The notes below the pieces were generated by a model. The model was given only the letters and a program-made list of their open reading frames with translations. It was not told where the DNA came from and did no database searches. A DNA stretch of 64,000 nucleotides from an uncultured Cryomorphaceae bacterium (GTDB lineage: Bacteria; Bacteroidota; Bacteroidia; Flavobacteriales_D; Cryomorphaceae): contig CAZNOG010000009.1 in the NCBI GenBank assembly GCA_964574635.1, forward strand, positions 26,220 through 90,219, given 5' to 3'. Position numbers and translations under genes: made by a program. Below are positions 2,203-17,349 of this stretch, piece by piece; the first letter of the stretch is position 1, and the number at the start of each line of letters is the position of its first letter.

Positions 2203-2216
2203 CCGGTTTCCCTTGA

Positions 2217-2885
2217 TTATTCCCGCCAAAGGTAAGGAAATAATACATAGGACAAGCCCAGGGCGAGCAGCGGAACGGCCCCCAACTGCAAGGCGTAAAC
2301 GCCGTTTTCGGACCACGCGATCCCGTCGAGGGAATTCTTGGAAAACCGCATGAGAATAAGCAGCAATGGGAGGATGACCGGCAGACCCAAAATGGCCATG
2401 AGGCCCAAATTGTTCTCCGCTTGGGACGAAATGGCGGATATCAGCGTCAGCACAAACGCCAAACCGACGGCGCCCAGGAAAAGGGCCAGCATCAGCGCTC
2501 CGGCATGGACTTGTTGCAGGGGATCCGTGCCGAGCATCAACGCGTACATGCCGAACCCTACGAAAACCATGACCACCAGAAGGAAGGCGTTGTATATCAT
2601 CTTGCCGATGATCACCGATTCGGGCGAAGCCAACGTATAGAGATACAGTCTGCGGCCGGCGTTCTCGGAGGCGAAACTCCGTGCGGAGGCATTGAAGGCG
2701 GCAAACAAAACGATGATCCAAAACAGGGCGTTCCACGTCGGAACGTCGACGATGCGCCGGAACGCCAAGTACGACACGAAAACCGAAGCGGCGATGTACA
2801 GAAAGACGCTGCCCAACGCGTGCGGACGACGCCACTCCATGCGCAAATCTTTTCCCACCACGGCTCTGACCTCCCTCCAATCCAT
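2217..2885 (-). CDS. ccmB: heme exporter membrane protein CcmB
   Basis: 222-aa polytopic membrane ORF directly upstream of ccmC, with CcmB-like length and hydrophobic pattern. Confidence 0.8.
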   Translation of the reverse strand: MDWREVRAVVGKDLRMEWRRPHALGSVFLYIAASVFVSYLAFRRIVDVPTWNALFWIIVLFAAFNASARSFASENAGRRLYLYTLASPESVIIGKMIYNAFLLVVMVFVGFGMYALMLGTDPLQQVHAGALMLALFLGAVGLAFVLTLISAISSQAENNLGLMAILGLPVILPLLLILMRFSKNSLDGIAWSENGVYALQLGAVPLLALGLSYVLFPYLWRE

Positions 2886-2887
2886 AT

Positions 2888-4285
2888 TCAGGACTTTATT
2901 TCAACGACTTCACCCTCTTCGGGCAAATGGATGTGGTGAAAGCCTCCCGCTTCGAGATGATCCCGGTACGCTTCCCTCACTTCCGGTCGGCCGTGTACCA
3001 AAAACAGGTGGGTGATGAGATGGGGTTCCTGACAACTCAAGTACTCCATCATCTCCGAATAATCCCCGTGCGCCGAGTACGAATCCAAGACTTCCACGCG
3101 CGCCTTTACGCTGTACTCACGGCCGTGGATCCTCACGCTTTCGGCGCCTTCCCTCAACTGCCCACCCAAAGTGGAAGGTTCGCAGTACCCCACGATCAAC
3201 ACCGTGTTTCGAGAGTCTTCCAAATTGTTCTTGAGATGGTGCACGATGCGGCCGGCCTCGGCCATACCCGAAGCCGAAATGATGATGGCCGGCTCGCGGA
3301 GAGAGTTGATCAACTTGGAATACTTCGCCTCGCGGATGTAGTGGAGATTCGAAAATCCGAAGGGCTCTTTGTCGCGCTCCATGTACTTCAACATGCGCTC
3401 GTTGTAATGGTCGGGGAAGGAACGCACGATCTCCGTGGCATTGGTGCTCAACGGACTGTCGACAAACACTTTGATGGGCGGAAGCTCTCCTTCCGATTCC
3501 AAGCGGTCCAGTGCGTAGACGATCTCCTGCGTACGCCCCAAACTGAAGGACGGAATGATCAATTTTCCCTTGTTGTCCACGCACGTTTCCTGCACGATTC
3601 GGCCCAAGGTGTGCCGGTCGTGGTCTACGGATGCGTGCAAGCGGTCGCCGTACGTGCTTTCGGTGATGATGACGTCGGCACGGGGAAAGGGCTCCGGGCC
3701 CCGAATGATTTTCTGGTCCCGTCTTCCTATGTCTCCCGTGTAGGCCACTCGGTGGGTTTTCCTCCCTTCGCGGATGCGGAGGTTCACGCAGGCACTGCCC
3801 AAAATGTGGCCGACGTATGTGAACATCGCCGTGAGGTTCTCGCCCAGGTCATGCCACTCGTCGTAGGTCAAAGGCCGAAACAAATCCATGGCTTTCCTCA
3901 CGTCGTCGACGTCGTACAGGGGTTCCGCGAGTTCGCCGTGCACGTGCTTTGATTCGTATTTGAAATCCGACATTTGAATATGGGCCGAATCGGCGAGCAT
4001 GATCTCGCAGAGCGCCATCGTCGGTTCGGTGCAGTAGATGGGGCCTGAAAAACCCCGTTTGACCAAAAGCGGCAACAAACCCGAATGATCGATGTGGGCG
4101 TGCGACAAAATAACCACGTCGACCGATGCGGGGTCGAAGCCCAAGTCGCGGTTCCTCCTCCCGGCGTCGGCTTCACGCCCTTGGTACATGCCGCAATCCA
4201 ATAGGATGCGCAACCCCTCTTCGGTTTCGATGAGATGTTTGGAGCCCGTCACGGTGCCCGCTGCGCCTTTGAATGCTATTTTCAC
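2888..4285 (-). CDS. MBL-fold beta-CASP hydrolase (RNA-metabolising metallo-beta-lactamase family)
   Basis: 465 aa with the HxHxDH motif (SHAHIDHSG) and downstream beta-CASP-like motifs. Its stop lies 2 nt before the ccmB start. Confidence 0.85.
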   Translation of the reverse strand: MKIAFKGAAGTVTGSKHLIETEEGLRILLDCGMYQGREADAGRRNRDLGFDPASVDVVILSHAHIDHSGLLPLLVKRGFSGPIYCTEPTMALCEIMLADSAHIQMSDFKYESKHVHGELAEPLYDVDDVRKAMDLFRPLTYDEWHDLGENLTAMFTYVGHILGSACVNLRIREGRKTHRVAYTGDIGRRDQKIIRGPEPFPRADVIITESTYGDRLHASVDHDRHTLGRIVQETCVDNKGKLIIPSFSLGRTQEIVYALDRLESEGELPPIKVFVDSPLSTNATEIVRSFPDHYNERMLKYMERDKEPFGFSNLHYIREAKYSKLINSLREPAIIISASGMAEAGRIVHHLKNNLEDSRNTVLIVGYCEPSTLGGQLREGAESVRIHGREYSVKARVEVLDSYSAHGDYSEMMEYLSCQEPHLITHLFLVHGRPEVREAYRDHLEAGGFHHIHLPEEGEVVEIKS

Positions 4286-4428
4286 TACCGGTGGATTGGC
4301 GGAATATCTGCATGCAAAGTAAAGGAATACATCCGGGCTTGGGCGATTTTCGGTTCGCCGTCAAAATGCGATCTTTGAGCCACCGGATTTCGCGGAAATC
4401 CTCAAATCAATCCGACAAGGGAAGACAC

Positions 4429-4806
4429 ATGAAAACACTGGAAACCAAAAATGCGCCGGCACCCATCGGGCCATACAGCCAAGCGGTCGTAACCGGAAAA
4501 ACTTTGTTCATCAGCGGGCAAGTGCCCATCGACCCCGAAACGGGAACCATGGTTTCGGGCGGCATCTCGGCCGAAACCCACCAAGTGATGAAAAACCTCA
4601 GAGCCGTTCTCGCCGAAGCCGGGTTGGACTTCTCCAACGTGGTGAAATCGTCGATATTCATCACGAACATGGACGACTTTAAAGCGGTGAACGAAGTGTA
4701 CGGCTCTTACCTAAATCAGCCCTTTCCGGCTCGGGAAACGGTGGAAGTACGTCGGCTGCCGGCCAATGCGCGGGTGGAAATCTCCATGATCGCCGAACTG
4801 GGATAA
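4429..4806 (+). CDS. ridA: RidA/YjgF family reactive-intermediate deaminase
   Basis: Internal ATG at 4429 gives MKTLETKNAPAPIGPYSQAV...SGQVPIDP...ARETVEV..LP..ARVEI, a classic RidA of 125 aa. Confidence 0.9.
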   Translation: MKTLETKNAPAPIGPYSQAVVTGKTLFISGQVPIDPETGTMVSGGISAETHQVMKNLRAVLAEAGLDFSNVVKSSIFITNMDDFKAVNEVYGSYLNQPFPARETVEVRRLPANARVEISMIAELG

Positions 4807-5101
4807 GCGCTTTTACGCGCTGAAATCCATAGCTCTTCCATGCCGCAAAGTTGAATTCTTCGGGCGAAGGAAAACCAAAGCCTTAAGGACCTTTTGCGTG
4901 AGGGCGGCTGCCGGCATCCTTTTTCGGTCGGGGGTTTTGGCGGCAGTCGGAAAAACCGAAGCGAAATCGCAAGTCACCGAAAACTCGGGGTACACTCCGC
5001 CCCGAAAAAGATAGAGGCAAGAGACCGACCCCGGCGAAAGTCGATAAAATCAGGTGAGGGAAACGCGGTTTCCACCGGCGACAAAAGAAAAAAGACTACG
5101 C

Positions 5102-5120
5102 CGGGGGCACGCCCAAAAAA
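5102..5120 (+). repeat. dispersed motif CGGGGGCACGCCCAAAAA, copy
   Basis: Lies 42 nt downstream of the M61 stop. It is an inverted partner of the 7026-7043 copy. Confidence 0.7.
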
Positions 5121-5161
5121 CCCCGAATATTCTGAAAATCATAGGCAATCACCACCAGGTG

Positions 5162-6874
5162 TTACTTTTGGAATCCAAGGGATTTCCAGCGGTGAAAGGG
5201 TGTGCCCGGGCGCGTGGCCGTCGGTTTGATTTCGATGTCGTGAAAATGAACCCGACCGTCGGGTTTGAGCATTTCCCGCATGCGTTTGTAGCCCGAACGG
5301 TAGCTCATTCGGAGAGAAACCGGCGAGAAACCATGGTCGGTTTCCATGAAAGTTTTGGCATCGGCCTCATTGATTTCCAACACAATGTCGTCGTGAGCCA
5401 AATCGCCGTGGTCTGCGGGAGAATCGGGCGCAATGTTCCACACCACCATGCGTCCGTCGATCTCTTCGAGGTGCAGACCAAAGGCCGATTTCACGTTCGA
5501 CGCCGGCGCCTTTTCCACGACCTCCAGACCGACCTTCTCCAACGCAATCTGAAAATAGCCCTCCAAGAATCCCCGTCCGTCGATCACCTCAGCGCGCAAT
5601 TGCTCCCAGTCGGCATCGGCCGTTTCGGCCACCAAATTCCAGAACTCGTCTTCGGTAAAACCCTGTGCCGGATCGACCTTTTCGTACATCTTCCTCATGA
5701 CGGTAGACAAGTCGGCGCCGCCGTCGCTGGCCTCGAAAAGCCACTGGTCGAGCACGAAAGCGAACATCGCCCCTTCGCCGTAAATGCTCACTCGCCGGTG
5801 CGGCGTTCCCCGTCCGTAGCCGTCCACCCAAGTATCCACCGAAGAGTCGGCCAGCGACAGGTTCAACCGACCCTTGCCGTGCTTGTGGCGCTGTAAATGG
5901 ACGGCCAACTCGCGCAAAAAATCCGCGTCTTCAAACACCCCCGATTGCCACAGCAATTTGTCGCCCATGTAGGTGGTGATTCCCTCGGCGACGTAGCCCA
6001 GCCGACTCGCGCTCGGTCCGGAAAAATCGTAGGGCGTCCACTCCGCGGGGCGAAAACGCTTGACGTTCCAAGTGTGGTACAACTCGTGCGACGACACCCC
6101 GAGAAACTCGGCGTACATCTCCGGTTTGGTCAGGTCTTCCGCCGGCCCGAGTATGATGACCGTGCTCTCTTCGTGCTCCACGCCGTGGTGCATCCTCACG
6201 GGCATAAACAGGAGCATGAAGCGGTATTGCCGCGTGGGAAAACCTCCGAAAACGCGGATTTGCGCCTCGGTAAACGCGCGAAAATGTTCCACCACTTGCT
6301 CCTCGTCCAGCTCGGTTTCTCCGTATATATCAATGTGAAAATGAACACCTTCCACCTCGTACTCGAGGTGCCTCAAATTGGCGGCAGCCAAAATCGGCGA
6401 GTCCATGAGGTGCTGCAAATTGCGCGCGGCGTACGCCCTTCCGCGGACCAATTCCATCGGCGTCACCGCCTGCCAATCGGCCGGAAGCTCCACCTCCAAT
6501 TCCGAAGGGGCATCTTCCAAACCGGTCGTATACATCAATGCATTTACGGGATTGATCAGCAGGAAATTGCGGTCGCAGTACGTATTGCCGGCCGACAAAT
6601 CCCCGGCGTACAATTCGTAAGTCACCTTCAGCGCCTCGCCCTTTCGCGCGTCCACCTCCCATTGGTGCGGTGAAATCTTCCGCGAATTCAGCTCATTGCC
6701 TGCACTTTCAACCCGTACACCAATAAAGTTTTTTACAAAATTTCCTCTTTCGTATCGCCCCGGTCGCCAGTAGGATACCATCAGGCGGGGATTGTCGTGA
6801 GGAGCCTCGAAAAAGTATTCCACGCGCATGTGTCGGCGCTTGCCTTCGTTCGGCCTAATCGTATATCGCTGCAT
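5162..6874 (-). CDS. M61 family (glycyl aminopeptidase-like) metallopeptidase with C-terminal PDZ-like region
   Basis: 570 aa with the HExxH motif in SSHELYHTWNVKRFRP and M61-like architecture. Confidence 0.8.
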   Translation of the reverse strand: MQRYTIRPNEGKRRHMRVEYFFEAPHDNPRLMVSYWRPGRYERGNFVKNFIGVRVESAGNELNSRKISPHQWEVDARKGEALKVTYELYAGDLSAGNTYCDRNFLLINPVNALMYTTGLEDAPSELEVELPADWQAVTPMELVRGRAYAARNLQHLMDSPILAAANLRHLEYEVEGVHFHIDIYGETELDEEQVVEHFRAFTEAQIRVFGGFPTRQYRFMLLFMPVRMHHGVEHEESTVIILGPAEDLTKPEMYAEFLGVSSHELYHTWNVKRFRPAEWTPYDFSGPSASRLGYVAEGITTYMGDKLLWQSGVFEDADFLRELAVHLQRHKHGKGRLNLSLADSSVDTWVDGYGRGTPHRRVSIYGEGAMFAFVLDQWLFEASDGGADLSTVMRKMYEKVDPAQGFTEDEFWNLVAETADADWEQLRAEVIDGRGFLEGYFQIALEKVGLEVVEKAPASNVKSAFGLHLEEIDGRMVVWNIAPDSPADHGDLAHDDIVLEINEADAKTFMETDHGFSPVSLRMSYRSGYKRMREMLKPDGRVHFHDIEIKPTATRPGTPFHRWKSLGFQK

Positions 6875-7025
6875 ATCAAAACGTTGATCACCCGAGGACG
6901 ATCACAAACTTCATCGTGCAAAGTCCGCGGATTCAGGTACAAAGGTCGGACTTGCGAACGACATGGTAAAACGCGCATCGGTTCAAGGCCGGTTTCTTCA
7001 CGACCCTGCAGTCGGTGCGTTTCCG

Positions 7026-7043
7026 TTTTTGGGCGTGCCCCCG
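7026..7043 (-). repeat. dispersed motif CGGGGGCACGCCCAAAAA, copy (inverted)
   Basis: The plus strand reads TTTTTGGGCGTGCCCCCG, about 150 nt upstream of the M61 start. Confidence 0.7.
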
Positions 7044-7388
7044 GGCGACCTTTATGGAGACAATCCGAACACACATGTGCCTGTGTTCCTGTATTCGGGC
7101 AAGGTGCTCACCCCGGGGTCGGCCTACAGGTTCTATCTCTCCGCCCCGCGTCGTTCGTGCGCAAGGCGGATGCACGAGCTCATAAAATCGCTGTCCCTCC
7201 GCCGCGCCCGAAACCTCGCGCGGCGGAGAGGATGCCACCTTCCGTCCTCACGCGCCGCAGTGTGGCTTCATTCGAGCCCGATCCCATTCGGCCGGGGGCG
7301 TGGAACCCGGTCATGAAAAATCCTCCCCGTTTGGCGCGCAAGTTTTCGTAATTTCGCCGTCTGTTAACGTCACGAAAAAAACCGGATC

Positions 7389-8777
7389 ATGAAATACGAT
7401 GTCATCGTTTTGGGCAGTGGCCCCGGTGGATATGTAGCCGCCATACGTTCTAGCCAATTGGGATTCAAAACCGCCGTTGTAGAGCGGGAAAATTTGGGCG
7501 GCATCTGCCTGAATTGGGGTTGCATCCCCACCAAAGCCTTGTTGAAGAGCGCCAACGTTTTTGAGTACATCTCCCATTCGGAGGATTACGGCATCTCGCT
7601 CAACAACCCCAAAGCCGACTTTTCGGGCATGATCAAGCGCAGCCGCGATGTGGCCGCCGGCATGAACAAAGGCGTGGAGTTTTTGATGAAGAAGAACAAA
7701 ATCGACGTGATCTTCGGAGAGGGCAAGGTGAAGGCCGGTCGCAAGATCGACGTGACGGACAAAGACGGCAAGACCACCACCTACGAGGGAAAGCACATCA
7801 TCATCTCGACCGGTGCCCGAGCAAAGGAACTCCCCAACATCAAGATCGACGGCGAAAAAATCATCGAATACCGCAAGGCGATGTCGCTGGAGAAACAGCC
7901 GAAGAAGATGGTGGTGATGGGCAGCGGCGCCATCGGAAGTGAATTCGCGTATTTCTACAACGCCATCGGCACGGAAGTGACCATCGTGGAGTACCTCGAC
8001 AACGTGGTGCCCCGGGAAGACGAAGAAGTGTCGAAGCAATTGGGCCGTTCTTTCAAGAAAGCCGGCATCAAGGTGATGACCTCCGCATCCGTGGAGAGCG
8101 TGGATACTTCCGGCAGTGGGTGCAAGGTGAAAGTGAAGACCAAGAAAGGCGAAGAAACCATCGAGTGCGACGTGGTACTCAGCGCCGTGGGCGTGACACC
8201 AAATACGGAAAACATCGGCTTGGAAGAAGTGGGCATCAAAACCGAAAAAGGCTATGTGAAGGTCGACGAATTTTACCGCACCAACGTAGAGGGTTATTAC
8301 GCCATCGGCGATTGCGTACCGGGTCCCGCATTGGCGCACGTGGCGAGTGCCGAGGGCATCACCTGTGTTGAGAAAATCAAAGGCATGGAAGTGGAAGCCA
8401 TCGACTACGGCAACATTCCCAACTGTACGTATTGCTCGCCCGAGGTGGCCAGCGTGGGCATGACCGAAGACCAAGCCAAGGAAGCCGGTTACGAACTGAA
8501 AGTGGGCAAATTCCCGTTTTCAGCTTCGGGCAAAGCCAAGGCGGCGGGCCACAGCGACGGGTTCGTAAAACTGGTTTTTGACGCCAAATACGGTGAACTT
8601 CTGGGCGGGCACATGATCGGGTCCAACGTTACCGAAATGGTGGCCGAACTGGTGTCCATCCGAAAGTTGGAAACCACCGGCCACGAAATCATCAAGACCA
8701 TCCACCCCCACCCCACCATGAGCGAAGCCATCATGGAAGCGGCCGCCGCGGCGTACGGGGAGGTGATTCATATTTGA
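7389..8777 (+). CDS. lpdA: dihydrolipoyl dehydrogenase
   Basis: 462 aa with a GxGxxG FAD motif (VLGSGPGGY) and the redox disulfide GGICLNWGCIPTK. The long antisense ORF at 7311-8474 is discounted. Confidence 0.95.
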   Translation: MKYDVIVLGSGPGGYVAAIRSSQLGFKTAVVERENLGGICLNWGCIPTKALLKSANVFEYISHSEDYGISLNNPKADFSGMIKRSRDVAAGMNKGVEFLMKKNKIDVIFGEGKVKAGRKIDVTDKDGKTTTYEGKHIIISTGARAKELPNIKIDGEKIIEYRKAMSLEKQPKKMVVMGSGAIGSEFAYFYNAIGTEVTIVEYLDNVVPREDEEVSKQLGRSFKKAGIKVMTSASVESVDTSGSGCKVKVKTKKGEETIECDVVLSAVGVTPNTENIGLEEVGIKTEKGYVKVDEFYRTNVEGYYAIGDCVPGPALAHVASAEGITCVEKIKGMEVEAIDYGNIPNCTYCSPEVASVGMTEDQAKEAGYELKVGKFPFSASGKAKAAGHSDGFVKLVFDAKYGELLGGHMIGSNVTEMVAELVSIRKLETTGHEIIKTIHPHPTMSEAIMEAAAAAYGEVIHI

Positions 8778-8779
8778 GA
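8497..8779 (+). repeat. perfect direct repeat, copy 1 (lpdA 3' end)
   Basis: Identical by eye to 11505-11787, at an offset of 3,008 nt. Confidence 0.9.
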
Positions 8780-8899
8780 TAGACCACGCATTCGAAAGCG
8801 GAGGGAATTTTTATTTCAGTACAAAGCTCCTTCCGTAATTCCGTTTCTTTTCACGCAGCGGAAAGGGCGGTCGCGCAAGGTTTGGCCGACGCCGTCGGC

Positions 8900-10855
8900 T
8901 CATCTGTTCACCACGAATTTTTCCGTGGCGTTTCTTTCTCCCGAAATTGCGGTAAAAATGTACATCCCTGGGTTCAGCATCGAAACGTCTATTGGCGATC
9001 GGGCGTTCAGGCCGCCCTCAAGCACTACCCGTCCTGACAAATCAAATATGCGGAATGCGGCAGGACTTTGGTCGATGTTGGAAACATACAGTATTCCGGC
9101 GCTTGGGTTGGGGTACAGCCGAAAAGTTGTCCGTTCGGTCCGATCATTCGTGGAAGTAAAAATCTCCGGCGCGGAATAGAACGCAAAAAAACCGCTTCGG
9201 GCATTGGACGGCGTGGTAAAAGGCTCCGAATCCCCGAAGGGATCCAAGGTGGTGGTGACATTCCTCCCAATGGATCCTTGGATCAAGAGGGTGTCGCCTT
9301 GATAGGGGAGGATGGCATTGATGTCGATTATGTCAAAATCTACCGGGCTTTCATACGGAATGATCCAATGGTCGAGTATGGAAAGGTCGGTATCCAGCCA
9401 CAGGACATACACCCCTTTGCCCGCCGGAAATTCGATGAATGTATCTTCCGTGGATCCATCGAATCCGGTAAATTCATATCCCAAAACCGTATCATTCGCC
9501 GCCGCATAATGGAGAACCCAAGCCAATTTACCTTCGATTTCAAAGATTCCGGATTCTTTTGAAGGTCTGCCTGATATGCCCGAAACCTTTGACGCGACAC
9601 GCAATTTGCCAATCACATTCCCATTCAAATCCACTTTATACAACGTTGAATGGTACATTGGGACTTGGTACATTCCGCCGGCTAAATCATAATACGGTTC
9701 GTTGCTGTTATACAATTGTGTGTTGTAAAAACAATCGCGGAAAATCAAGGTGTCATCGACGTTTGCTTGGGTGAAAAGCTCTCCGCTCAAAAAAACACTT
9801 TCCGCTGTTTCCAGGATGGAAAAAAACAGGTTTTGAACCCGAAACTTATTCGAGCCCCAGAGTACGGTGTCCGCTTGGGTATTGTTGTACGCGTACAGCT
9901 CGGTGAGCCACTCTGTGGCTCCGGAAGCACTTTCTTTGGTAATGAATACGTGCAACAAGGAATCATTGTCAGGCATGGGTATCTCGGCGCCGGATACACT
10001 TATGGGTGTATTGTTTCCCCGCACCAACCCAATGCGATAAAGTCCGTCTTCTTGGGCTCTCTCCACCCTGAAATTTACCAGACTGCCGTTCTCGGATCCA
10101 ATTTGCTCACTGACCATTTCTTGTGTTTGCAAATTCAATTCTGTTCTCACAAATTGGGCTTGTCCTCCGGCGGCGGTGAATTCTTCGGTGGAGTTCAGTG
10201 TTTGGTTCTTGTTCAGTGTAAAGTACGACACCACCAGACTGTCACCTATCACCGCTGAGGCATTTTGGGCTTTAAAATTTCGATTCGGATTGCCGTATAC
10301 CATTTCAAAAAAACCTGAGAAAGGTGTATAAGATGAAAAGTTCCCAAACGGTGCGGAAAAATCTATCAAACCGACGGCAGTATGCGTTGGAGGGTCATAT
10401 GAAATAATGCCGGTTTGACTCAGGAAGTCCGCGGGATAATTTTGGACCGGCGGCCAGCCGCGTATTCCGGTAGTGCTGACTGTGTGATCGCTTACTGAAA
10501 GTTCGATGATCAATTTTTGATCGCTGAGCGGGTAAATATTTGGATCGGAAAACGGAGTGAAAAGGTAAGTGTTTCCTGGGATCAAGTTTTCGTCGTACAC
10601 CACAATGGCATTCGTATAAACCGTGTCGCCCGCGACTGTTGGCTGAATATTGTCTTCCCAAATCCCCGTATTGATCATTTGGGTATTCATGATTTGTGAC
10701 CAGTTGTAGGCCGCAACATACCCCTCTCCATCCGCAAGGGGTATGAATTGGTTAGACGACTCAAGATGTACCGATCTATGGATAAGGGCATTGGCTTGGG
10801 TCAAACCTTCGTGGGAAATCCATAACATTGAGAAAATCAAAATCCATTTATGCAT
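8900..10855 (-). CDS. T9SS type A sorting-domain protein (secreted, function unknown)
   Basis: 651 aa with an N-terminal signal peptide. The C-terminus RLYPNPSAGILYV...FDLSGRVV...LNPGMYIF...KFVVNR is a Por/T9SS CTD. The gene is AT-richer than its neighbours. Confidence 0.8.
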   Translation of the reverse strand: MHKWILIFSMLWISHEGLTQANALIHRSVHLESSNQFIPLADGEGYVAAYNWSQIMNTQMINTGIWEDNIQPTVAGDTVYTNAIVVYDENLIPGNTYLFTPFSDPNIYPLSDQKLIIELSVSDHTVSTTGIRGWPPVQNYPADFLSQTGIISYDPPTHTAVGLIDFSAPFGNFSSYTPFSGFFEMVYGNPNRNFKAQNASAVIGDSLVVSYFTLNKNQTLNSTEEFTAAGGQAQFVRTELNLQTQEMVSEQIGSENGSLVNFRVERAQEDGLYRIGLVRGNNTPISVSGAEIPMPDNDSLLHVFITKESASGATEWLTELYAYNNTQADTVLWGSNKFRVQNLFFSILETAESVFLSGELFTQANVDDTLIFRDCFYNTQLYNSNEPYYDLAGGMYQVPMYHSTLYKVDLNGNVIGKLRVASKVSGISGRPSKESGIFEIEGKLAWVLHYAAANDTVLGYEFTGFDGSTEDTFIEFPAGKGVYVLWLDTDLSILDHWIIPYESPVDFDIIDINAILPYQGDTLLIQGSIGRNVTTTLDPFGDSEPFTTPSNARSGFFAFYSAPEIFTSTNDRTERTTFRLYPNPSAGILYVSNIDQSPAAFRIFDLSGRVVLEGGLNARSPIDVSMLNPGMYIFTAISGERNATEKFVVNR

Positions 10856-10875
10856 AACGAATGGTTTTTACATGT

Positions 10876-11247
10876 TCACCAAACATCAAAGGAGTATTGA
10901 ATGGGTGAATAAGGCGGAGGAGCAGGATAATCCATCAATCCGGATGTTCCGGTGTAACAAGGGTTCGGGTCCTCGAGTACAGAAAGAACACTGCAGTTCC
11001 CATTCGCTTCGGAAACGATTTCAAATAGCGGTCCCCCCGGAAAATCTGCCTTTACCGCTTGAGGCGAGTCTCCGGGATCCAGCCAAACAACATAAGTCGA
11101 GCTCGGACCCACCGGCGGAATATTGTAGGTTCCGATACAGGCACCGAATTCGATCGTCATTGTACAATTGGTTCTGTTGTTGAAAGACACGGGAATCTGC
11201 GCGTTCAAAGGAATACTTGTGATAAGGAGGAAAAAGAATCGGGACAA
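10876..11247 (-). CDS. small secreted Cys-containing hypothetical protein
   Basis: 123-aa ORF with a signal-like N-terminus (MSRFFFLLITSIPLNAQ). It lies 20 nt upstream of the T9SS cargo gene on the same strand, with an AT-rich region upstream. Confidence 0.5.
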   Translation of the reverse strand: MSRFFFLLITSIPLNAQIPVSFNNRTNCTMTIEFGACIGTYNIPPVGPSSTYVVWLDPGDSPQAVKADFPGGPLFEIVSEANGNCSVLSVLEDPNPCYTGTSGLMDYPAPPPYSPIQYSFDVW

Positions 11248-11392
11248 CCGGTTTTGCGATCCCTTATTTTAGGCCAAACGCTTTTAAAATGGGAAATGAA
11301 AATGTTTTCATAATGTCTTGGTTAGGTTGGATTTCACCAAATGTATTGAAAACGATACACTTTACGAAATTGTATGAAGTGACCCTCGTGGA

Positions 11393-11785
11393 ATGGAAGT
11401 GGAAGCCATCGACTATGGCAACATTCCCAATTGCACTTATTGCTCACCCGAAGTGGCGAGCGTGGGCATGACGGAAGCGCAAGCCCAAGAAGCCGGTTAT
11501 GAATTGAAAGTGGGCAAATTCCCGTTTTCAGCTTCGGGCAAAGCCAAGGCGGCGGGCCACAGCGACGGGTTCGTAAAACTGGTTTTTGACGCCAAATACG
11601 GTGAACTTCTGGGCGGGCACATGATCGGGTCCAACGTTACCGAAATGGTGGCCGAACTGGTGTCCATCCGAAAGTTGGAAACCACCGGCCACGAAATCAT
11701 CAAGACCATCCACCCCCACCCCACCATGAGCGAAGCCATCATGGAAGCGGCCGCCGCGGCGTACGGGGAGGTGATTCATATTTGA
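11393..11785 (+). pseudogene. orphan duplicate of the lpdA 3' end (last 130 codons)
   Basis: The 130-aa ORF matches the lpdA C-terminus except for D->A and K->Q. There is no 5' part of the gene, and the homology starts at 11391-11393. Confidence 0.9.
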
Positions 11786-11787
11786 GT
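11505..11787 (+). repeat. perfect direct repeat, copy 2
   Basis: Identical to 8497-8779. Confidence 0.9.
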
Positions 11788-12012
11788 TTCGGATTCACGG
11801 GTTCCCGGAAGTTCGCCCCGGCTCGGGGAGAATATCCGGGAACGCAGAGCCCCGCCTTTTCACCTTATTCAATAGGTGAAGCACAATGCGCCGTATAGAA
11901 TGCGCCTGTTTTGCCGTGCATGAGGCATCCGTTCGACCTTACTCCTCCATCGTCTAGTCCAAAGTTGTCCATGACACGCAGGAGCCGGGTTCGACAATCA
12001 CGCCATACCACG

Positions 12013-12552
12013 TCATTGCACCACGAATTTTTCCCCGAAGTATCCTTCCCCCGTTGCGGTAAAGATATACATCCCCGGGTTCAGTCTCGAAATATCCAGC
12101 GGCGAGCCGGCCACCAAATGGCCCTCGAGCATTATGCGGCCGGACAAATCAAAAATACGGTATGCCGCATGTTTGTCGCGCAGGCCGGATGCGTATAGTT
12201 TTCCCGAGCTTGGATTGGGGTACAATCCAAAGGAATTCTTTTGGGTCTGCACTTGCATGGAAGTGAGGATGTCGGGCGCGGAGAAAAATGCAAAAAATCC
12301 GCTTCGGAAGTTCGACGGTGTGGTAAAGGGCTCCGAATCTCCAAAGGGATCCAATGTGGCGGAGGTACCCCTGCCCAAGGACCCCTGAATCAGCAAAGTA
12401 TCGCCCCCGAACGGAAGTATTGAATTGATGTCTATGACGTCGAAATCATCGAGGCTTTCATACGGAATCAACCAATGATCCATGATGGAAAGGTCGGTAC
12501 ACCCACAAAAACCCAAACCCTCACACCCTTCCCGTGTATGTGGTTCCGCCAC
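12013..12552 (-). pseudogene. 5'-truncated paralog of the 8900-10855 T9SS protein (C-terminal ~175 aa only)
   Basis: DHWLIPYES..DFDVIDINSILP..GDTLLIQGSLGR...DPFGDSEPFTTPSN.RSGFFAF plus a CTD aligns to the C-terminus of the 651-aa protein. Homology ends at ~12497, so there is no signal peptide. Confidence 0.75.
12499..12514 (+). repeat. dispersed motif ACACCCACAAAAACCC, copy 1
   Basis: Exact 16-mer located at the truncation junction of the T9SS paralog. About 30 nt of extended similarity to the copy at 28175. Confidence 0.8.
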
Positions 12553-12570
12553 GGCGGAACTTTTCGTGCG

Positions 12571-15000
12571 TTAGGGTTTTTCGGCGTGTTTCACGTACTT
12601 CTCCAGCCATTGGTCTTGCTCCCACAACACGTGAAACACACTTTCCTTTGCGCTGTAGCCGTGGCTTTCCTTGGGCAGCATAACCAAACGCGCTGTGGCG
12701 CCAAGTCCTTTCAACGCGTTGAAATAGCGCTCGCTCTGCATGGGATAGGTGCCTGAATTATTGTCGTCGGCACCGTGGATCAACAGCAGGGGCGCGTTCA
12801 TTTTGTGCGCGTTCATGAAGGGCGACATGGTATTGTACACCTCGGGCGCTTCCCAATAATTGCGTTCTTCACTCTGGAACCCAAAGGGTGTGAGAGTGCG
12901 GTTGTAGGCTCCGCTGCGCGCGATACCGGCGGCGAATAAATCGGAATGCGACAGCAAATTGGCCACCATGAAAGCTCCGTAGGAATGTCCGCCCACGCCC
13001 ACCCGGTTTCGATCGATATAACCCATGGCATCCACGGCGTCGATGGCGGCTTGGGCATTGGCCACCAATTGGGATACGAAACTGTCGTTGGGCTCGGTAT
13101 CCCCCTCGCCGACGATGGGGAAATCCGCATTGTCGAGTACCAAGTAACCACGAGTGACCCAGTAAATCGGTGATCCGTAGTGCGGGTAAATAAAGCGGTT
13201 GGGATTGGTGGTGCTTTGACCTGCGCTGCTCTTGCTCTTGAATTCCCGGGGATAAGCCCATAAGATCATCGGCAGTTTTTCCTTCTTCCGCATATCGTAA
13301 CCCACGGGGAGATACAACGTGGCTTCCAAGTCCAATCCATCGGCGCGTTTGTATTTGATCACTTCTTTGTGAACGTCTTGAATGCTCTTGAAGGGATTGT
13401 CGAAATAGGTGATCTGCGAGAGTTGGTTTTCCTCATCGATGTTTCGGAAGTAGTAGTTGGGGTACTCCGTGGGGGATTCAATGCGCACCAATACTTTTCC
13501 ATTGGGAATATCACTGCCCGAAGAATAAATGCTTTCGACTTTGTCGGTGTAGGGAGATTGGTAAATCCGGGAAGTTTCCAAGGTGTTCATGTTCATCTTG
13601 TCGATAAAGGGAAACTGCCCCTCGGGGGTAAAGCCCGAGCCGATCAGGAAAGCGTCCTCACCATCGAGTTCCAAAACCTGCTGATCGTATTGGTTTCTCG
13701 TCGTCACGAAACTTCCGGGATCTCCGTAACGGTCTTCGTAATTCCGGTCGAAAACGAGTACGGCGTCTTCATCGGGATTGCCCGGGTTGAACCGGTAGGT
13801 CTTGGTGTTGCGCGTATTCCACCAATAATCCGTGCCAAGCGCCAGGGAGTCCGTCCCCCAGGTGATGCCCGAAAATCGGTTGATGGTCTTGAAAAGCAGG
13901 TTTGGTTCTCCCGAAAAAGGTGCCTCCTGCTGATAAACGGCGTCGCGGTATTCCACCTCCTTTTCAGGATCGCCGCCGTCCAGTGCCTCAGTCCAAAACA
14001 AGGTGGCCGGTTTGTCGTTGCGCCACTCCAAGTTTCTTTTGCCCATGCGCGTAGCCATGAAACCTTGGGGTCGCACCTCGTCCAAGGGAACTTCGTTGAC
14101 GCGTGCAACGAACTCGCCGGTAGCGGAATACACGTCTTTGGCAAAAGGAAATCGATGATGCGTAACCAAATAAGAGAAAGGTTTTTGGAGGGTTTCCACC
14201 AAGAGGTATTCTCCGTCGGGGGAGAAGGAGAGCGCATCATACATTGCCGGCGGGAGAAACGGGGTGGCGTTTCCGTCCAAGTCCAATTTGTATATTTCAG
14301 ACCGCACCAATTGCTCGAAATTGAATTCGTCATTGGCGTCTTTCAACAAATCTTGGTAGGTGCGATTTTGCGCTTTCATTCCGTCGCTGACGGAAACCGT
14401 GGGGCCCGTAGGGACGGCTTCCGAATTGTTTATCAGCTCCCGACGATCCTGTGGAACGGACTTGACCAACAGGCCTTCACTGTCTCTGAACCAAGTCAGT
14501 GCACTGCCGATATTGGCATTCACGGCAAGGTCGCCCAACTTCTTGGCCCGGGCGGTTTCTATTTCCACGAGCCAGACTTCCGATTTTTCCGAGTCCGTAT
14601 TCAGAAAAGCCAAATATTTTTCGTCCGAAGAGCGGGTGAAATTGGAAAACCGTCCCGTTAGCGGAAGGCCGGAAACCTGTCGGGGTTCTTTTTCTTGGGT
14701 GGTTTTTACTTTGATGTTGTTGTAAAATCGCGTTCTGCTGCCGATGTTGGTTTTCGGATTGATGCGCAATCCCGCCAAGCGCAATTCGGTTTCGGATAGC
14801 TCCGCGATGGATTTGAATTGATCTCGGTAAAACAGAATCACGTTTTCCCCTTTGCTGTCGATCTGAACCGATGGAGCCAAAGGCACATCCACCAATTTTC
14901 GGATGTTTTCATGCGGGGTTTGGTAGGTGGGATTCTCTTGGGCGAAAGACGTGAAGCACAAGCAAATCGCGACAACGGCAAAGATGGATTTCAAATTCAT
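12571..15000 (-). CDS. S9 family serine peptidase (prolyl oligopeptidase/dipeptidyl peptidase-like)
   Basis: Start taken at MNLKSIFAVVAICLCFTSFAQ (signal peptide). Contains the nucleophile motif GGHSYGAF and an N-terminal beta-propeller-like region. The upstream 60 codons of the ORF lie inside the repeat array. Confidence 0.9.
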   Translation of the reverse strand: MNLKSIFAVVAICLCFTSFAQENPTYQTPHENIRKLVDVPLAPSVQIDSKGENVILFYRDQFKSIAELSETELRLAGLRINPKTNIGSRTRFYNNIKVKTTQEKEPRQVSGLPLTGRFSNFTRSSDEKYLAFLNTDSEKSEVWLVEIETARAKKLGDLAVNANIGSALTWFRDSEGLLVKSVPQDRRELINNSEAVPTGPTVSVSDGMKAQNRTYQDLLKDANDEFNFEQLVRSEIYKLDLDGNATPFLPPAMYDALSFSPDGEYLLVETLQKPFSYLVTHHRFPFAKDVYSATGEFVARVNEVPLDEVRPQGFMATRMGKRNLEWRNDKPATLFWTEALDGGDPEKEVEYRDAVYQQEAPFSGEPNLLFKTINRFSGITWGTDSLALGTDYWWNTRNTKTYRFNPGNPDEDAVLVFDRNYEDRYGDPGSFVTTRNQYDQQVLELDGEDAFLIGSGFTPEGQFPFIDKMNMNTLETSRIYQSPYTDKVESIYSSGSDIPNGKVLVRIESPTEYPNYYFRNIDEENQLSQITYFDNPFKSIQDVHKEVIKYKRADGLDLEATLYLPVGYDMRKKEKLPMILWAYPREFKSKSSAGQSTTNPNRFIYPHYGSPIYWVTRGYLVLDNADFPIVGEGDTEPNDSFVSQLVANAQAAIDAVDAMGYIDRNRVGVGGHSYGAFMVANLLSHSDLFAAGIARSGAYNRTLTPFGFQSEERNYWEAPEVYNTMSPFMNAHKMNAPLLLIHGADDNNSGTYPMQSERYFNALKGLGATARLVMLPKESHGYSAKESVFHVLWEQDQWLEKYVKHAEKP

Positions 15001-15328
15001 CAAAATGGGTTTGGGCCAAAGATATCCAAAAGGGAGAAAGGGGGGCGGTGATCGGGATTTAGTGATATCCGGATAAGTGACTCCAAGGCGACTTAAATCG
15101 GAACAAATAGTAAATCTAACTGAAGGGACCGGGGATCGAGAGGTGCTGTGTTCCGGATAGGTGACTTGGAGGCGACTCAAACTGGATTAAGGTTGGGGTC
15201 GAACTGAAGGGATCGGGGATCGGTGATCGGGCTTGGCTGTTTTCCGGACATGTGACTTCGAGACGACTCAGATCAGGTCAAATAGTGAATCTTACCGGAG
15301 GGACCGGTGATCGAGAGGTGCTTTTTTA

Positions 15329-15473
15329 CGGATAGGTGACTTCGATGCGACTCAAATCGGATTAAGGTTGGGGTCGAACTGAAGGGATCGGGGATCGGTG
15401 ATCGGGCTTGGCTGTTTTCCGGACATGTGACTTCGAGGCGACTCAAATCGGATAAGAAATCTGATTGATCGGC
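15329..15473 (+). repeat. ~145-nt direct repeat, copy 1
   Basis: Near-identical to 15749-15893. The two copies flank a 275-nt unique segment. Confidence 0.85.
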
Positions 15474-15748
15474 ATCTGACCCCGGACGTACACCCCACCT
15501 CGCGCGTCATTCCGAACTTGTTTCGGAATCTCTTTGTCGCAAGAAAGCCAACTTACATGGATTAGGTTCGAGGCGAGTCAAATTGGATTTAGAATTACAT
15601 GGACGTGCAGAACGACCATACGCCGTTTTTAACCACATAGGTTACATAGGAAGGCAGGGCGTGTAGGAAAGCCAGGCGGCATAGCGCGTCTTTGACGCAA
15701 CACAGAGGGATCGGGGATCGGTGATCGGTGATCGAGATGTGCATTTTT

Positions 15749-15893
15749 CCGGATAGGTGACTTCGAGGCGACTTAAATCGGATTAAGGTTGGGGTCGAAC
15801 TGAAGGGATCGGGGATCGGTGATCGGGCTTGGCTGTTTTCCGGACATGTGACTTCGAGGCGACTCAAATCGGATAAGAAATCTGATTGATCGG
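15749..15893 (+). repeat. ~145-nt direct repeat, copy 2
   Basis: Near-identical to 15329-15473 and abuts the IS256 remnant. Confidence 0.85.
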
Positions 15894-16268
15894 GGAGTGT
15901 TCAATCAACTGTGTCATCTGTTAAAAAGCGTCCTTCGAAGTATCGGTGAAGGTCCCTTCTGATGGATTTCCACCCAAATATCCTTCCGTTCCACTTGGAT
16001 TTGGCATTGACGGTAGCCAAATATATCTGTTTCAGGATCGCGGTCTCGGAATTGAACGCCCCTTTCGTCTTGGTCACCTTACGTACCATCCGATGATAGC
16101 TTTCTATGGGGTTGGTGGTGTAAATCAGCCTTCGCAGTGCCGGCGGGTATTTGTAGAAGTTCGTCAGCCTTTCCCAGTTGTGGTTCCAGCTCTTGAACAC
16201 CACCTTGTATTTGTCGCCCCATTTCGCTTCGGCTTCCTCCAATCGGTGCCGGGCCCAAGACCGTGAGC
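15875..16268 (-). mobile_element. IS256-family (mutator-type) transposase remnant, 3' ~120 codons only
   Basis: The translation ...EAEAKWGDKYKVVFKSWNHNWERLTNFYKYPPALRRLIYTTNPIESYHRMVRKVTKTKGAFNSETAILKQIYLA... matches the conserved IS256 Tnp C-terminus (YTTNxIES, RKxTK). There is no N-terminal or DDE part. Confidence 0.75.
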
Positions 16269-16270
16269 TA

Positions 16271-16616
16271 TGTATGGTGAACACGAATCCGCAAAGGCGG
16301 GCTGGTTGAAATCCAAGTACCCGGTACCATAAATAATTCCAAAATTCCGCAATCCTACGGACAAAAAATTTGGACAATCCTTCCCACGAATTAGCATGTA
16401 ACTGTCCTCCAATCCGCCCATCCCGGCTTCGTAAAAGTAAAAGACTTCGTCGTTGCAATAAAACGTTGGTATCGTTCTGAACTCCACCCCATTGATTTTG
16501 CAGGTAAAAAGCTCTGCAAAGTGCTCTCCTTCGGGGGCGTCGTCATCGTCTTTGCAACAAGAAAGGCATGTGACGAGTGCCACGGATATCAGTAGAATAT
16601 GTTTTCTTATGCGCAT
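16271..16616 (-). pseudogene. lipoprotein paralog truncated at its 3' end by the IS256 remnant
   Basis: MRIRKHILLISVALVTCLSCCKDDDD...FADSCSPYIAHG is near-identical to the 16770-17336 gene up to 16271, then reads into IS sequence. Confidence 0.7.
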
Positions 16617-16628
16617 GGGGTCGGGGTA

Positions 16629-16769
16629 TTATTCAACGATTAACAATTTGCCTCTATGACCGGGGTCATGGGATTTCGATATCAGGTAAAAATACATGGC
16701 CGGAGGGCACAAAGGAAGAGAGCGATGAAACAATCAACTTGCTTTTGTATGGAGCGACAGCATGCGTGG
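16629..16769 (-). pseudogene. remnant of a T9SS C-terminal sorting domain (last ~45 codons)
   Basis: Hand translation ends ...LPLCPPAMYFYLISKSHDPGHRGKLLIVE*, paralogous to the C-terminus of the 17350-17721 ORF. No upstream ORF is present. Confidence 0.45.
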
Positions 16770-17336: not shown

Positions 17337-17349
17337 TGGATCGGGGTTG

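What the first reader, a model, noticed from the sequence alone, without database searches (positions are those of the whole stretch)
8385..11787. lpdA 3' end duplicated 3,008 bp downstream around a low-GC T9SS-cargo insert, with a mosaic divergence pattern
The last 393 nt of lpdA (8385-8777) recur at 11393-11785. By direct comparison, the first ~112 nt differ at 14 positions. Ten of those are silent third-position changes, and only D->A and K->Q alter the protein. From 8497/11505 to 2 nt past the TGA the two copies are identical (~283 nt), and similarity then stops abruptly.

Silent-biased divergence is what two alleles kept under selection look like, not a decaying fragment. The sharp switch to 100% identity looks like a recombination or gene-conversion breakpoint.

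The bracketed ~2.6 kb carries a 651-aa T9SS-sorted protein and a 123-aa secreted Cys-containing protein. It is visibly AT-richer: sampled 60-nt lines are about 45% GC inside versus about 60% in lpdA.

This resembles an island inserted into the 3' end of a housekeeping gene with target-end duplication, yet no integrase or recombinase is present. The 283-bp perfect direct repeats would permit RecA-mediated loss or amplification of the insert.
Basis: partly seen in the sequence, partly recalled or inferred. Interest (0 to 1): 0.7.

Follow-up and report, generated by a model that had tools for sequence, protein, structure and literature searches.

The report
Displaced secreted-protein cassette behind lpdA
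The repeated end of the lpdA gene is real; it is most likely a scar left when a second, divergent version of the secreted-protein gene pair normally found behind lpdA was recombined in from a related strain and pushed the old version downstream, so it is not a classic integrase-borne genomic island.

Summary
Window 8382-8778 recurs at 11390-11786. There are 14 differences, all in 8408-8496, and 8497-8778 (282 nt) is identical.

The repeated unit is therefore the convergent junction [lpdA 3' end -> <- T9SS cargo 3' end].

In the closest relatives (Cryomorphaceae metagenome contigs from 10+ samples), a single lpdA is followed by the same spacer as 11787-11949 and by a full-length orthologue of the truncated ORF (93% nt). 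That cargo is followed by a small secreted protein and the S9 peptidase. The "insert" (cargo A plus the 123-aa protein) is a 74%-identical allele of that resident cassette. Its low GC (46.9%) is shared by the orthologous cassettes.

The region is a recombination mosaic, with blocks 0.5-3% and 7-14% divergent from the nearest relative. F_R is a coherent, selection-shaped divergent allele (dN/dS 0.06).

Best reading: an integrase-free addition of a donor-strain cassette anchored in the lpdA 3' end, either one-sided homologous plus illegitimate joining or single-crossover entry of a circle. The resident cassette was then displaced and truncated. This resembles Rhs/T6SS module displacement. A more distant lineage shows the same layout. 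Interest is modest.

The parts
7389..8777 (+). Intact lpdA (dihydrolipoyl dehydrogenase, 462 aa). It is itself a recombination mosaic relative to the nearest relative.
   Evidence: Pfam hits Pyr_redox_2 and Pyr_redox_dim. Against L083/L090: 7478-7904 is 9.6% divergent, 7905-8570 is 0.9%, and 8571-8756 is 12.4%.
8382..8778 (+). Left repeat copy F_L (last 396 nt of lpdA plus 1 nt). 8382-8496 is the rel1-type allele. 8497-8778 is identical to F_R.
   Evidence: There is 1 difference from rel1 in the first 115 nt, against 15 differences from F_R.
8779..8899 (.). Spacer igA between the lpdA stop and the cargo A stop. It is unrelated to the spacer after F_R. It loosely resembles, in position and hairpin, the lpdA-cargo spacer of L085.
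   Evidence: alignment.
8900..10855 (-). Cargo A: a 651-aa secreted all-beta (propeller-like) protein with a T9SS C-terminal sorting domain. It is a divergent allele of the resident cargo.
   Evidence: Por_Secre_tail at 580-649. 67.5% aa / 74% nt to rel1 c603 and 55% aa to L089 c648. AlphaFold pLDDT 82, weak beta-propeller matches, CTD match to 8glk_D.
10876..11247 (-). Small (123 aa) protein with an apparent N-terminal signal sequence, the partner of the cargo. It is conserved as a pair with the cargo in all relatives.
   Evidence: No Pfam hit. 72-76% aa to the rel1 144-aa protein and 58% to the L089 128-aa protein.
11248..11389 (.). Upstream region of the small gene, ending in junction J2. 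Homology to the rel1 upstream region runs to about 11377. It is followed by 12 nt of unknown origin (11378-11389) and then abuts lpdA nt 994.
   Evidence: alignment. The junction is crossed by independent Logan contig L001.
11390..11786 (+). Right repeat copy F_R: an orphan lpdA 3' fragment with a 130-aa ORF spanning the whole dimerisation domain. It is a coherent divergent allele, with 14/115 and 22-23/208 differences from both rel1 and L112.
11787..11987 (.). Spacer igB with a terminator-like hairpin (11801-11843). It is the positional homologue of the spacer that follows the single lpdA in rel1 and L112.
   Evidence: (inverted repeat I6).
11988..12498 (-). B': the 3' 511 nt of the resident-type cargo gene and its 3' flank (ORF 12013-12552). 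It is the orthologue of rel1 c603, 93% nt and 89% aa, and is 5'-truncated.
12498..12499 (.). Deletion junction J3. About 2.1 kb is missing relative to rel1 (the 5' 1.3 kb of the cargo, the small-protein gene and its upstream region). There are 2 nt of microhomology at the join.
12571..15000 (-). S9-family peptidase, the conserved right flank of the cassette in rel1. The likely true start is the Met at 15000.
   Evidence: Pfam Peptidase_S9. 92-95% nt to rel1. The rel1 gene is 809 aa.

Best explanation
The locus downstream of lpdA in this Cryomorphaceae lineage holds a polymorphic cassette: a T9SS-secreted all-beta cargo protein plus a small partner protein that appears to be secreted.

**Proposed event.** A strain carrying the B-type cassette had the order lpdA - igB - B - small - S9 peptidase. 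It acquired, from a related strain or lineage, a DNA segment carrying the donor's lpdA 3' end, igA, cargo A, the small gene and about 140 nt upstream of it. The segment was fixed by host recombination anchored in lpdA, with no site-specific recombinase.

**Two possible routes.**
- (a) A homologous crossover in lpdA at the left, plus an illegitimate join of the right end to recipient lpdA nt 994 (homology-facilitated illegitimate recombination).
- (b) A single crossover of a 3,008-bp circularised fragment (Campbell type), as proposed for Rhs tips.

Either route leaves an intact chimeric lpdA, then the new cassette, then an orphan lpdA 3' stub (F_R) still attached to the old spacer and old cassette.

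**Aftermath.** The now-redundant old cassette lost its 5' 2.1 kb through a microhomology deletion.

**The mosaic.** The 14-differences/282-identical pattern reflects ordinary allele mosaicism in a highly recombining population. F_L has the rel1-type allele up to 8570. F_R keeps a different, selection-shaped allele. Both share the same 3' block, possibly helped by conversion during or after the event.

**Shown:** the repeat, the homology relationships, the single-copy relatives, the mosaicism, the deletion junction and the absence of a recombinase.

**Inferred:** the direction of the event (donor versus recipient), which of routes (a) and (b) applied, and whether any conversion occurred.
For: 1. 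Both genes of the convergent pair are duplicated, and the second copy is truncated on both sides.
2. F_R - igB - B' - S9 is colinear with lpdA - spacer - cargo - (small) - S9 of the nearest relatives: 89.8% over F_R plus igB, 93% over B', 92-95% over S9. A plus small matches the same genes at only 74%.
3. Single-lpdA genomes exist. rel1 was seen in 10+ independent runs, and in L112 lpdA is followed directly by the igB type and the B-type cargo end.
4. On pairwise identities, A falls outside (B', c603), with L089 c648 more distant still.
5. The divergent part of F_R has dN/dS 0.06. A model in which it decayed as a pseudogene for half the divergence time is rejected (P = 1e-4).
6. The whole neighbourhood alternates between blocks 0.5-3% and 7-14% divergent from rel1. 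lpdA segments on either side of 8497-8570 are reassorted among lineages.
7. Junction J3 is a plain microhomology deletion.
8. The insert holds only two ORFs, neither of which is a recombinase.
9. 0 of 80 other Bacteroidota lpdA loci carry a nearby lpdA fragment, so the feature is specific to this clade.
10. Published models for the same outcome exist: HFIR-type displacement of T6SS effector-immunity modules (PMC5361080) and single-crossover entry of circles carrying a core fragment plus a new tip at rhs loci (PMC2935791).
Against: - No donor genome was found. Nothing above 70% aa identity to A exists in the protein collection. The F_R-specific 29-mer is absent from the JGI metagenomes.
- Under either route, the two copies should differ wherever donor and recipient alleles differed. 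The 208 nt at 8571-8778 are identical in both copies yet about 11% divergent from rel1 and L112. Donor and recipient must therefore have shared that block, or it was homogenised. This is an extra assumption.
- igB and B' are 7-15% from rel1, not the 1-3% baseline, so the "resident" is not simply rel1-like.
- The L085/L089 lineage has the same layout with an older fragment. This could mean an ancient shared duplication rather than a recent addition.
- The window comes from a MAG, and no read-level evidence was available on copy number or on integrated versus circular state.
Confidence: 0.68

Rival explanations
1. An old in-situ tandem duplication of the unit [lpdA 3' end - spacer - cargo - small gene]. 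The two cargo copies then diverged to 74% nt. The closest relatives lost the extra copy through recombination between the lpdA repeats. Gene conversion from the functional lpdA kept the last 282 nt of the stub identical.
For: The same lpdA - cargo - small - lpdA-stub layout occurs in the more distant L085/L089 lineage. Loss by recombination between direct repeats is mechanically easy.
Against: The divergent 112 nt of the stub show dN/dS 0.06 and reject long-term neutral decay. By contrast the L085 stub has clearly decayed, with several radical replacements. By pairwise identity, A is closer to rel1 c603 (67.5% aa) than to L089 c648 (55%). That is the opposite of what a duplication predating the split from L085/L089 would give. 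igA and igB cannot be aligned with each other. rel1 and L112 would each have to have lost the copy.
Confidence: 0.15
2. One reading: a genomic island integrated site-specifically into the 3' end of lpdA, carrying a replacement gene end. The att-like direct repeats come from a now-lost or trans-acting integrase.
For: Direct repeats flank a low-GC segment at the 3' end of a housekeeping gene, and the gene is restored by the duplicated end.
Against: No integrase, excisionase or transposase lies in or beside the segment. The nearest mobile-element trace is a Mutator-family transposase fragment at 15901-16458. The "island" genes are positional homologues of the resident genes. A 282-396 nt repeat is far longer than typical att cores. 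Low GC is shared by the orthologous cassettes. 0 of 80 other Bacteroidota lpdA loci show such a repeat.
Confidence: 0.03
3. An assembly artefact or unresolved graph loop. The sample could hold chromosomes with lpdA-igB together with a separate 3,008-bp circle, or a tandem array of unknown copy number. The assembler would simply have walked the loop once.
For: The window is from a MAG. A 282-nt perfect repeat exceeds common k-mer sizes. The Logan contig ends 30 nt into the repeat on both sides, which is the signature of a loop.
Against: Junction J2 (small-gene upstream region joined to lpdA nt 994) is present in an independent k=31 assembly, and no shared k-mer could create it by chimerism. A 3-kb circle without a replication gene should not persist. 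Independent assemblies of another lineage (ENA L085, NCBI L089) show the same integrated layout through to flanking genes.
Confidence: 0.07

Closest known systems
C-terminal tip displacement at rhs / cdiA loci (Jackson et al. 2009, PMC2935791; Poole et al. 2011, PMC3150448)
   Same: A new variable module arrives attached to a fragment of the conserved upstream sequence and recombines through that homology using host functions. The old module is shunted downstream behind a stub of the conserved sequence. No integrase is involved. Direct repeats allow excision as a circle.
   Different: Here the anchor is a housekeeping metabolic gene (lpdA), not the conserved core of the polymorphic gene itself. 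The variable module is a separate, convergently transcribed gene pair, not a C-terminal tip fused in frame. Only one displaced module is present, and it is truncated. No toxin or immunity function is known.
Sequential displacement of T6SS effector-immunity modules in Vibrio cholerae by homology-facilitated illegitimate recombination (Kirchberger et al. 2017, PMC5361080)
   Same: A one-sided homologous anchor in a conserved upstream gene is combined with an illegitimate join at the other end. The incoming module displaces the resident one, and remnants of the old module are retained downstream. Phylogeny argues against simple duplication.
   Different: In Vibrio the retained remnant is a functional orphan immunity gene. 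Here the retained remnant is a 5'-truncated cargo gene plus a duplicated piece of the anchor gene. The secretion system (T9SS) and the phylum also differ.
Homology-facilitated illegitimate recombination in transformation (de Vries & Wackernagel 2002 and Prudhomme et al. 2002, as cited in PMC5361080; PMC3240628)
   Same: Integration of DNA through one homologous end and one illegitimate end.
   Different: The process has been demonstrated experimentally in Acinetobacter, Pseudomonas, Streptococcus and E. coli. Natural competence or any other transfer route is unknown for this organism. The donor-side sequence at J2 is unknown, so microhomology at the illegitimate join could not be assessed.
Integrase-mediated genomic islands at the 3' ends of tRNA or protein genes
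   Same: The insertion lies at a gene's 3' end, a duplicated gene end restores the ORF, and the inserted segment has lower GC.
   Different: There is no recombinase. The repeat is hundreds of nt long and mosaic. The content is allelic to the resident genes.

Membership tests
Integrase-borne genomic island / prophage with att duplication | A tyrosine or serine recombinase (or transposase) gene within or adjacent to the element | tested here: not met
   Only two ORFs lie in 8779-11389: a T9SS cargo and a 123-aa protein with no Pfam hit. The nearest transposase trace is a Mutator-family fragment at 15901-16458.
Integrase-borne genomic island / prophage with att duplication | Short conserved core att repeats at both ends, with cargo unrelated to the genes of the empty site | tested here: not met
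   The repeat is 397 nt, of which 282 are identical. The cargo is 74% nt identical to the genes occupying the site in relatives.
Rhs/CdiA-type C-terminal displacement arrays | The displaced module is preceded by a fragment of the conserved upstream (anchor) sequence, in direct orientation | tested here: met
   F_R (11390-11786) precedes igB and B'.
Rhs/CdiA-type C-terminal displacement arrays | The variable module is the in-frame C-terminal toxin tip of the anchor gene, followed by a cognate immunity gene | tested here: not met
   The anchor is lpdA. The modules are separate convergent genes with a signal sequence or T9SS CTD, and have no toxin or immunity domain.
Rhs/CdiA-type C-terminal displacement arrays | Anchor and modules are evolutionarily decoupled, with modules exchanged between lineages | tested here: met
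   lpdA is 0.9-12% divergent from rel1, while the cargo is 26% divergent. lpdA segments are reassorted between lineages.
HFIR / Campbell-type recombinational insertion | One junction lies within homology and the other is a novel, non-homologous join | tested here: met
   The left boundary lies inside lpdA homology. J2 joins the small-gene upstream region (plus 12 nt) to lpdA nt 994.
HFIR / Campbell-type recombinational insertion | Microhomology at the illegitimate junction relative to the donor and recipient parental sequences | not testable with these tools
   No donor sequence was found. Only the later deletion J3 could be examined, and it shows 2 nt of microhomology.
T9SS cargo proteins | An N-terminal signal peptide plus a C-terminal Por_Secre_tail sorting domain | tested here: met
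   PF18962 at 580-649 of A and 110-178 of B'. The CTD of the model superposes on 8glk_D, TM 0.83. The signal-like N-terminus was read directly from the sequence.

The most novel reading that the evidence does not exclude
The 3,008-bp unit (lpdA stub plus cargo A plus its small partner), bounded by 282-nt perfect repeats, may be a self-perpetuating, integrase-free mobile cassette. RecA would excise it as a circle. After transfer, it would re-enter any related genome by a single crossover in the conserved lpdA 3' end, shunting the resident cassette downstream. That would be the Rhs-tip mechanism transplanted onto a housekeeping-gene anchor. It would drive turnover of a polymorphic T9SS-secreted protein pair, possibly an effector with a cognate partner. 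The same architecture in the L085/L089 lineage, and the invariant 74-nt block at 8497-8570, would then be parts of that system.
Probability: 0.12. Interest if true: 0.65.

Novelty: new variant of a known kind. Interest (0 to 1): 0.33.

Why it matters
This gives a concrete, junction-resolved example of how a hypervariable secreted-protein locus in an uncultured marine or freshwater Bacteroidota lineage turns over. The process uses only host recombination, with the end of an essential metabolic gene as the homology anchor. That extends the "module displacement" logic, known from polymorphic toxin loci (Rhs, CdiA, T6SS), to T9SS cargo.

It also flags the cargo plus small-protein pair as a strain-polymorphic module whose biology is worth testing.

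On the practical side, duplicated ends of core genes in MAGs can mark real recombination scars rather than misassemblies. Low GC alone is also a poor indicator of foreign origin for secreted-protein genes.

Tried and rejected
1. I searched for exact lpdA, S9 and B' proteins in public assemblies. None were on record. Only cargo A was found, on a loop-length Logan contig.
2. The GTDB genome scan with lpdA gave nearest species at only 83-84% aa. Upstream synteny is conserved but the downstream genes are unrelated, so no empty-site information came from it.
3. I asked whether short "lpdA" proteins in the protein collection reveal widespread lpdA-stub duplications. The two checked (P0050, P0117) are frameshifted single lpdA genes, not duplicates, and 0 of 80 Bacteroidota loci have a stub. 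I rejected the idea of a general phenomenon.
4. An exact search for the F_R-specific allele in the JGI metagenomes found nothing. A cargo-profile scan of the same collection returned only rel1 and L089 contigs, plus distant homologues (36-43%) not next to lpdA.
5. A simple Campbell model with a rel1-like recipient and a crossover in 8497-8570 predicts a rel1-type 3' block in F_R and a rel1-like igB. Both predictions fail, so an additional assumption is needed: a shared block or a conversion.
6. I initially read the 74-nt block at 8497-8570 as evidence for F_L to F_R conversion. I dropped this when L112 and L113 showed that the block is invariant in the whole clade. It has no significant RNA fold.
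7. L086 (cargo at 59%) is flanked by another T9SS protein, not lpdA.
8. Sigma-70 promoter and terminator scans of the region gave no more hits than in shuffled sequence.

Full report

Yes. At an offset of 3,008 nt, window 8382-8778 matches 11390-11786. Within the lpdA reading frame (8385-8777) there are 14 mismatches, all between 8408 and 8496. Eleven are third-position changes. Ten codons change silently. Two codons carry two changes each (D->A, K->Q).

8497-8778 is identical over 282 nt, ending 1 nt after the TGA. Beyond that the similarity stops.

The clustering is far from random. The maximum chi-square breakpoint is at 8497 (permutation p about 3.5e-4), and P(all 14 in the first 112 nt) = 2e-8. 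The silent bias is strong: Nei-Gojobori pS 0.49, pN 0.028, ratio 0.06.

The 651-aa ORF (8900-10855, minus strand) has a T9SS sorting domain. The 123-aa ORF (10876-11247, minus strand) has no Pfam match.

GC of the bracketed 2.6 kb is 46.9%, against 54.9% for lpdA and 54.8% for the window.

A Logan contig from run SRR10083315 equals window 8749-11534 exactly. It crosses the novel junction at 11389/11390 and ends 30 nt inside the identical repeat at both ends, as a true repeat would in a k=31 graph.

**2.

ORF 12013-12552 (minus strand, 179 aa) is 69% identical over 162 aa to the C-terminal third of the 651-aa protein, and it has its own Por_Secre_tail domain. DNA 8947-9246 matches 12054-12353 at 73%.

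The repeated unit is therefore the whole convergent junction [lpdA 3' end -> <- cargo 3' end]. In the second copy both genes lack their 5' parts.

**3. Relatives**

The organism is a Cryomorphaceae MAG, judged from the names attached to members of the lpdA 90% cluster. The species representatives in GTDB are too distant to help. Their lpdA is 83-84% aa identical, the upstream M61 peptidase is syntenic, and the downstream genes are unrelated. Metagenome contigs gave three informative lineages.

- **rel1** (L082-84, L090-99, L102, L110; more than 10 runs). The order is M61 peptidase - lpdA -> <- 720-aa T9SS protein <- 603/649-aa cargo <- 144-aa protein <- S9 peptidase. There is a single lpdA and no stub.
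- **L112**. A single lpdA is followed directly by a spacer of the same type as 11787-11987 and by the 3' end of a B-type cargo. The 720-aa gene is absent.
- **L085/L089**. lpdA is about 83% nt identical to the window. The two contigs are 93.7% identical to each other. The order is lpdA -> <- cargo (55-58% aa to A) <- small protein, then a 200-240-nt lpdA 3' stub that is 86-90% identical to their own lpdA. The stub is visibly decayed, with several radical replacements in its translation. Homology between L085 and L089 stops exactly at the end of that stub.

**4. How the window maps onto rel1**

| Window segment | rel1 counterpart | nt identity |
|---|---|---|
| F_R + igB (11390-11949) | end of rel1 lpdA plus its downstream spacer | 89.8% |
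| 11988-12498 (B') | last 511 nt of the rel1 cargo gene and its 3' flank | 93% (89% aa) |
| 12499 onward | 3' flank and body of the S9 peptidase | 92-95% |
| Cargo A + small gene + upstream region (8909-11370) | the same rel1 cargo and small genes | 74% |

The piece after the second lpdA copy is thus colinear with the normal chromosome of relatives, except for one 2.1-kb deletion. That junction lies at 12498/12499 and has 2 nt of microhomology. The 720-aa gene is a rel1-specific addition, since L112, L085 and L089 all lack it.

The "insert" is a divergent allele of the cassette that normally occupies this site, not new cargo. The orthologous cassettes are also low in GC (50.4, 43.4, 47.8 and 47.0%), so composition does not mark it as alien.

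**5. The mosaic**

The window and rel1 are very close in some blocks (0.5-3% divergence) and 7-14% apart in others, all along 445-15000.

Within lpdA the pattern is: 7478-7904 at 9.6%, 7905-8570 at 0.9%, and 8571-8756 at 12.4%.

L112 is nearly identical to the window for the first 900 nt of lpdA and about 10% divergent thereafter.

I split the repeat into three segments: a (8382-8496), m (8497-8570) and c (8571-8778). The results were:

- F_L has the rel1 allele in a (1 difference).
- F_R has a third allele in a, equidistant from rel1 and L112 (14 differences each out of 115).
- Both copies share a c allele that is 22-23/208 from rel1 and from L112.
- Segment m is identical in every member of the clade, yet differs at 13-15 sites in L085/L089.
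- The a and c types are reassorted among lineages.

The F_L/F_R pattern is therefore the same kind of mosaicism seen between strains. F_R looks like a coherent, functional-gene-derived allele. A model in which it drifted as a pseudogene for half of the divergence time is rejected (P = 1e-4).

**6. Mechanism**

The simplest account consistent with all of this is a recombinational addition of a donor strain's segment [lpdA 3' end - igA - A - small gene - about 140 nt] next to the resident cassette. It would be anchored by homology in lpdA and closed by one illegitimate join, J2 at 11378-11390.

Two routes give the same product:

- One-sided homologous plus illegitimate recombination of a linear fragment. 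In that case F_L is the donor's and F_R the recipient's.
- A single crossover of a 3,008-bp circle. In that case the 5' part of F_R is the donor's.

Both have published counterparts. HFIR-type displacement has been proposed for T6SS effector-immunity modules (PMC5361080). Circle-mediated "C-terminal displacement" has been proposed for rhs tips (PMC2935791).

The old cassette, pushed behind the stub, then lost its 5' 2.1 kb.

I could not tell the two routes apart because no donor was found. Nothing above 70% aa to A exists in the protein collection. The F_R-specific 29-mer is absent from JGI metagenomes. The cargo-profile scan found no new close lineage.

Both routes need donor and recipient to have shared the c block, or that block to have been homogenised during or after the event. 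I count this as the main weakness.

**7. Rival explanations**

- **Old in-situ tandem duplication with concerted evolution.** It is favoured by the L085/L089 layout. It is disfavoured by the selection signature of F_R, by A being closer in pairwise identity to rel1's cargo than to L089's, and by the need for independent losses in rel1 and L112.
- **Integrase-mediated island.** It fails its defining tests: there is no recombinase, the repeat is 397 nt, and the content is allelic.
- **Pure artefact.** It is unlikely. J2 is reproduced by an independent assembler, it cannot arise from a shared k-mer, and two other assemblies show the integrated layout. Copy number and the presence of excised circles remain untested.

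**8. Comparison and novelty**

The locus works like module displacement at polymorphic-toxin loci, but it is not a member of those families. The anchor is lpdA, and the modules are separate convergent genes with no toxin or immunity signature.

Cargo A is predicted to be all-beta. It gives weak propeller matches (CylK, ulvan lyase; TM 0.3-0.4) and has a clear T9SS CTD.

A control set of 80 other Bacteroidota lpdA loci contains no stub. Short lpdA proteins in databases are frameshifted genes. The feature is therefore clade-specific.

I rate it a new variant of a known kind of recombination scar, of modest interest. The more exciting reading is an integrase-free, self-propagating cassette system for T9SS cargo. 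That reading is not excluded, but it has only circumstantial support.

Noticed in passing
window 8497-8570 (and 11505-11578): A 74-nt block is identical in every lpdA allele of the clade (F_L, F_R, rel1, L112, L113). The flanks on both sides differ by 10-13% between those alleles, and L085/L089 differ from the block at 13-15 sites. Allele segments are reassorted around it. It has no significant RNA fold (z = -1.4). The cause is unknown.
   Followed up: partly
window 15046-15893: Arrays of roughly 88-91-nt (also 175-nt) tandem repeats lie just upstream of the S9 peptidase gene. They inflate its ORF to 869 aa; the likely true start is at 15000. The same repeat family sits at the end of rel1 contig L082 (84-nt units).
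   Followed up: partly
window 15901-17721: This stretch holds several features: a Mutator/IS256-family transposase C-terminal fragment (15901-16458, minus strand); two paralogous lipoprotein-like ORFs (16164-16616 and 16770-17357, with DNA 16244-16707 matching 16961-17428 at 90%); and an orphan ORF with a T9SS sorting domain (17350-17721). It is a second low-GC patch (about 47%).
   Followed up: partly
window 18480-19862; L085 2385-3749: The radical-SAM (HemN-like) gene that lies about 6.7 kb beyond the lpdA stub in the window lies only 880 nt beyond the stub in L085. The lpdA-to-hemN interval therefore behaves as a variable hotspot. The S9 peptidase, the repeats and the IS fragment are all absent from L085.
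   Followed up: partly
L085 (rc 4399-4403) / L089 14234: Two genomes that are 93.7% identical across lpdA, cargo, small gene and stub lose all homology exactly at the stop codon of the lpdA stub. The end of the stub is thus itself a rearrangement boundary.
   Followed up: partly
L090 8487-10649 (rel1): A 720-aa T9SS protein (P_proprotein, DUF7619, Por_Secre_tail) is present only in rel1. It sits precisely between the lpdA spacer and the cargo gene. The window and L112 instead share a 38-nt segment there (window 11950-11987). This is another cargo gain or loss at the same site.
   Followed up: partly
window 445-15000 vs L090: The backbone alternates between blocks 0.5-3% and 7-14% divergent from the nearest relative, for example at 2445-2844, 5045-5644 and 13699-14698. 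This indicates frequent homologous imports from a lineage about 10% divergent.
   Followed up: partly
L112 vs L113: Two contigs encode the identical 462-aa LpdA protein but differ at 35 synonymous sites, and they carry different downstream spacers (L113 is rel1-type). This is further evidence of allele reassortment at this gene.
   Followed up: no
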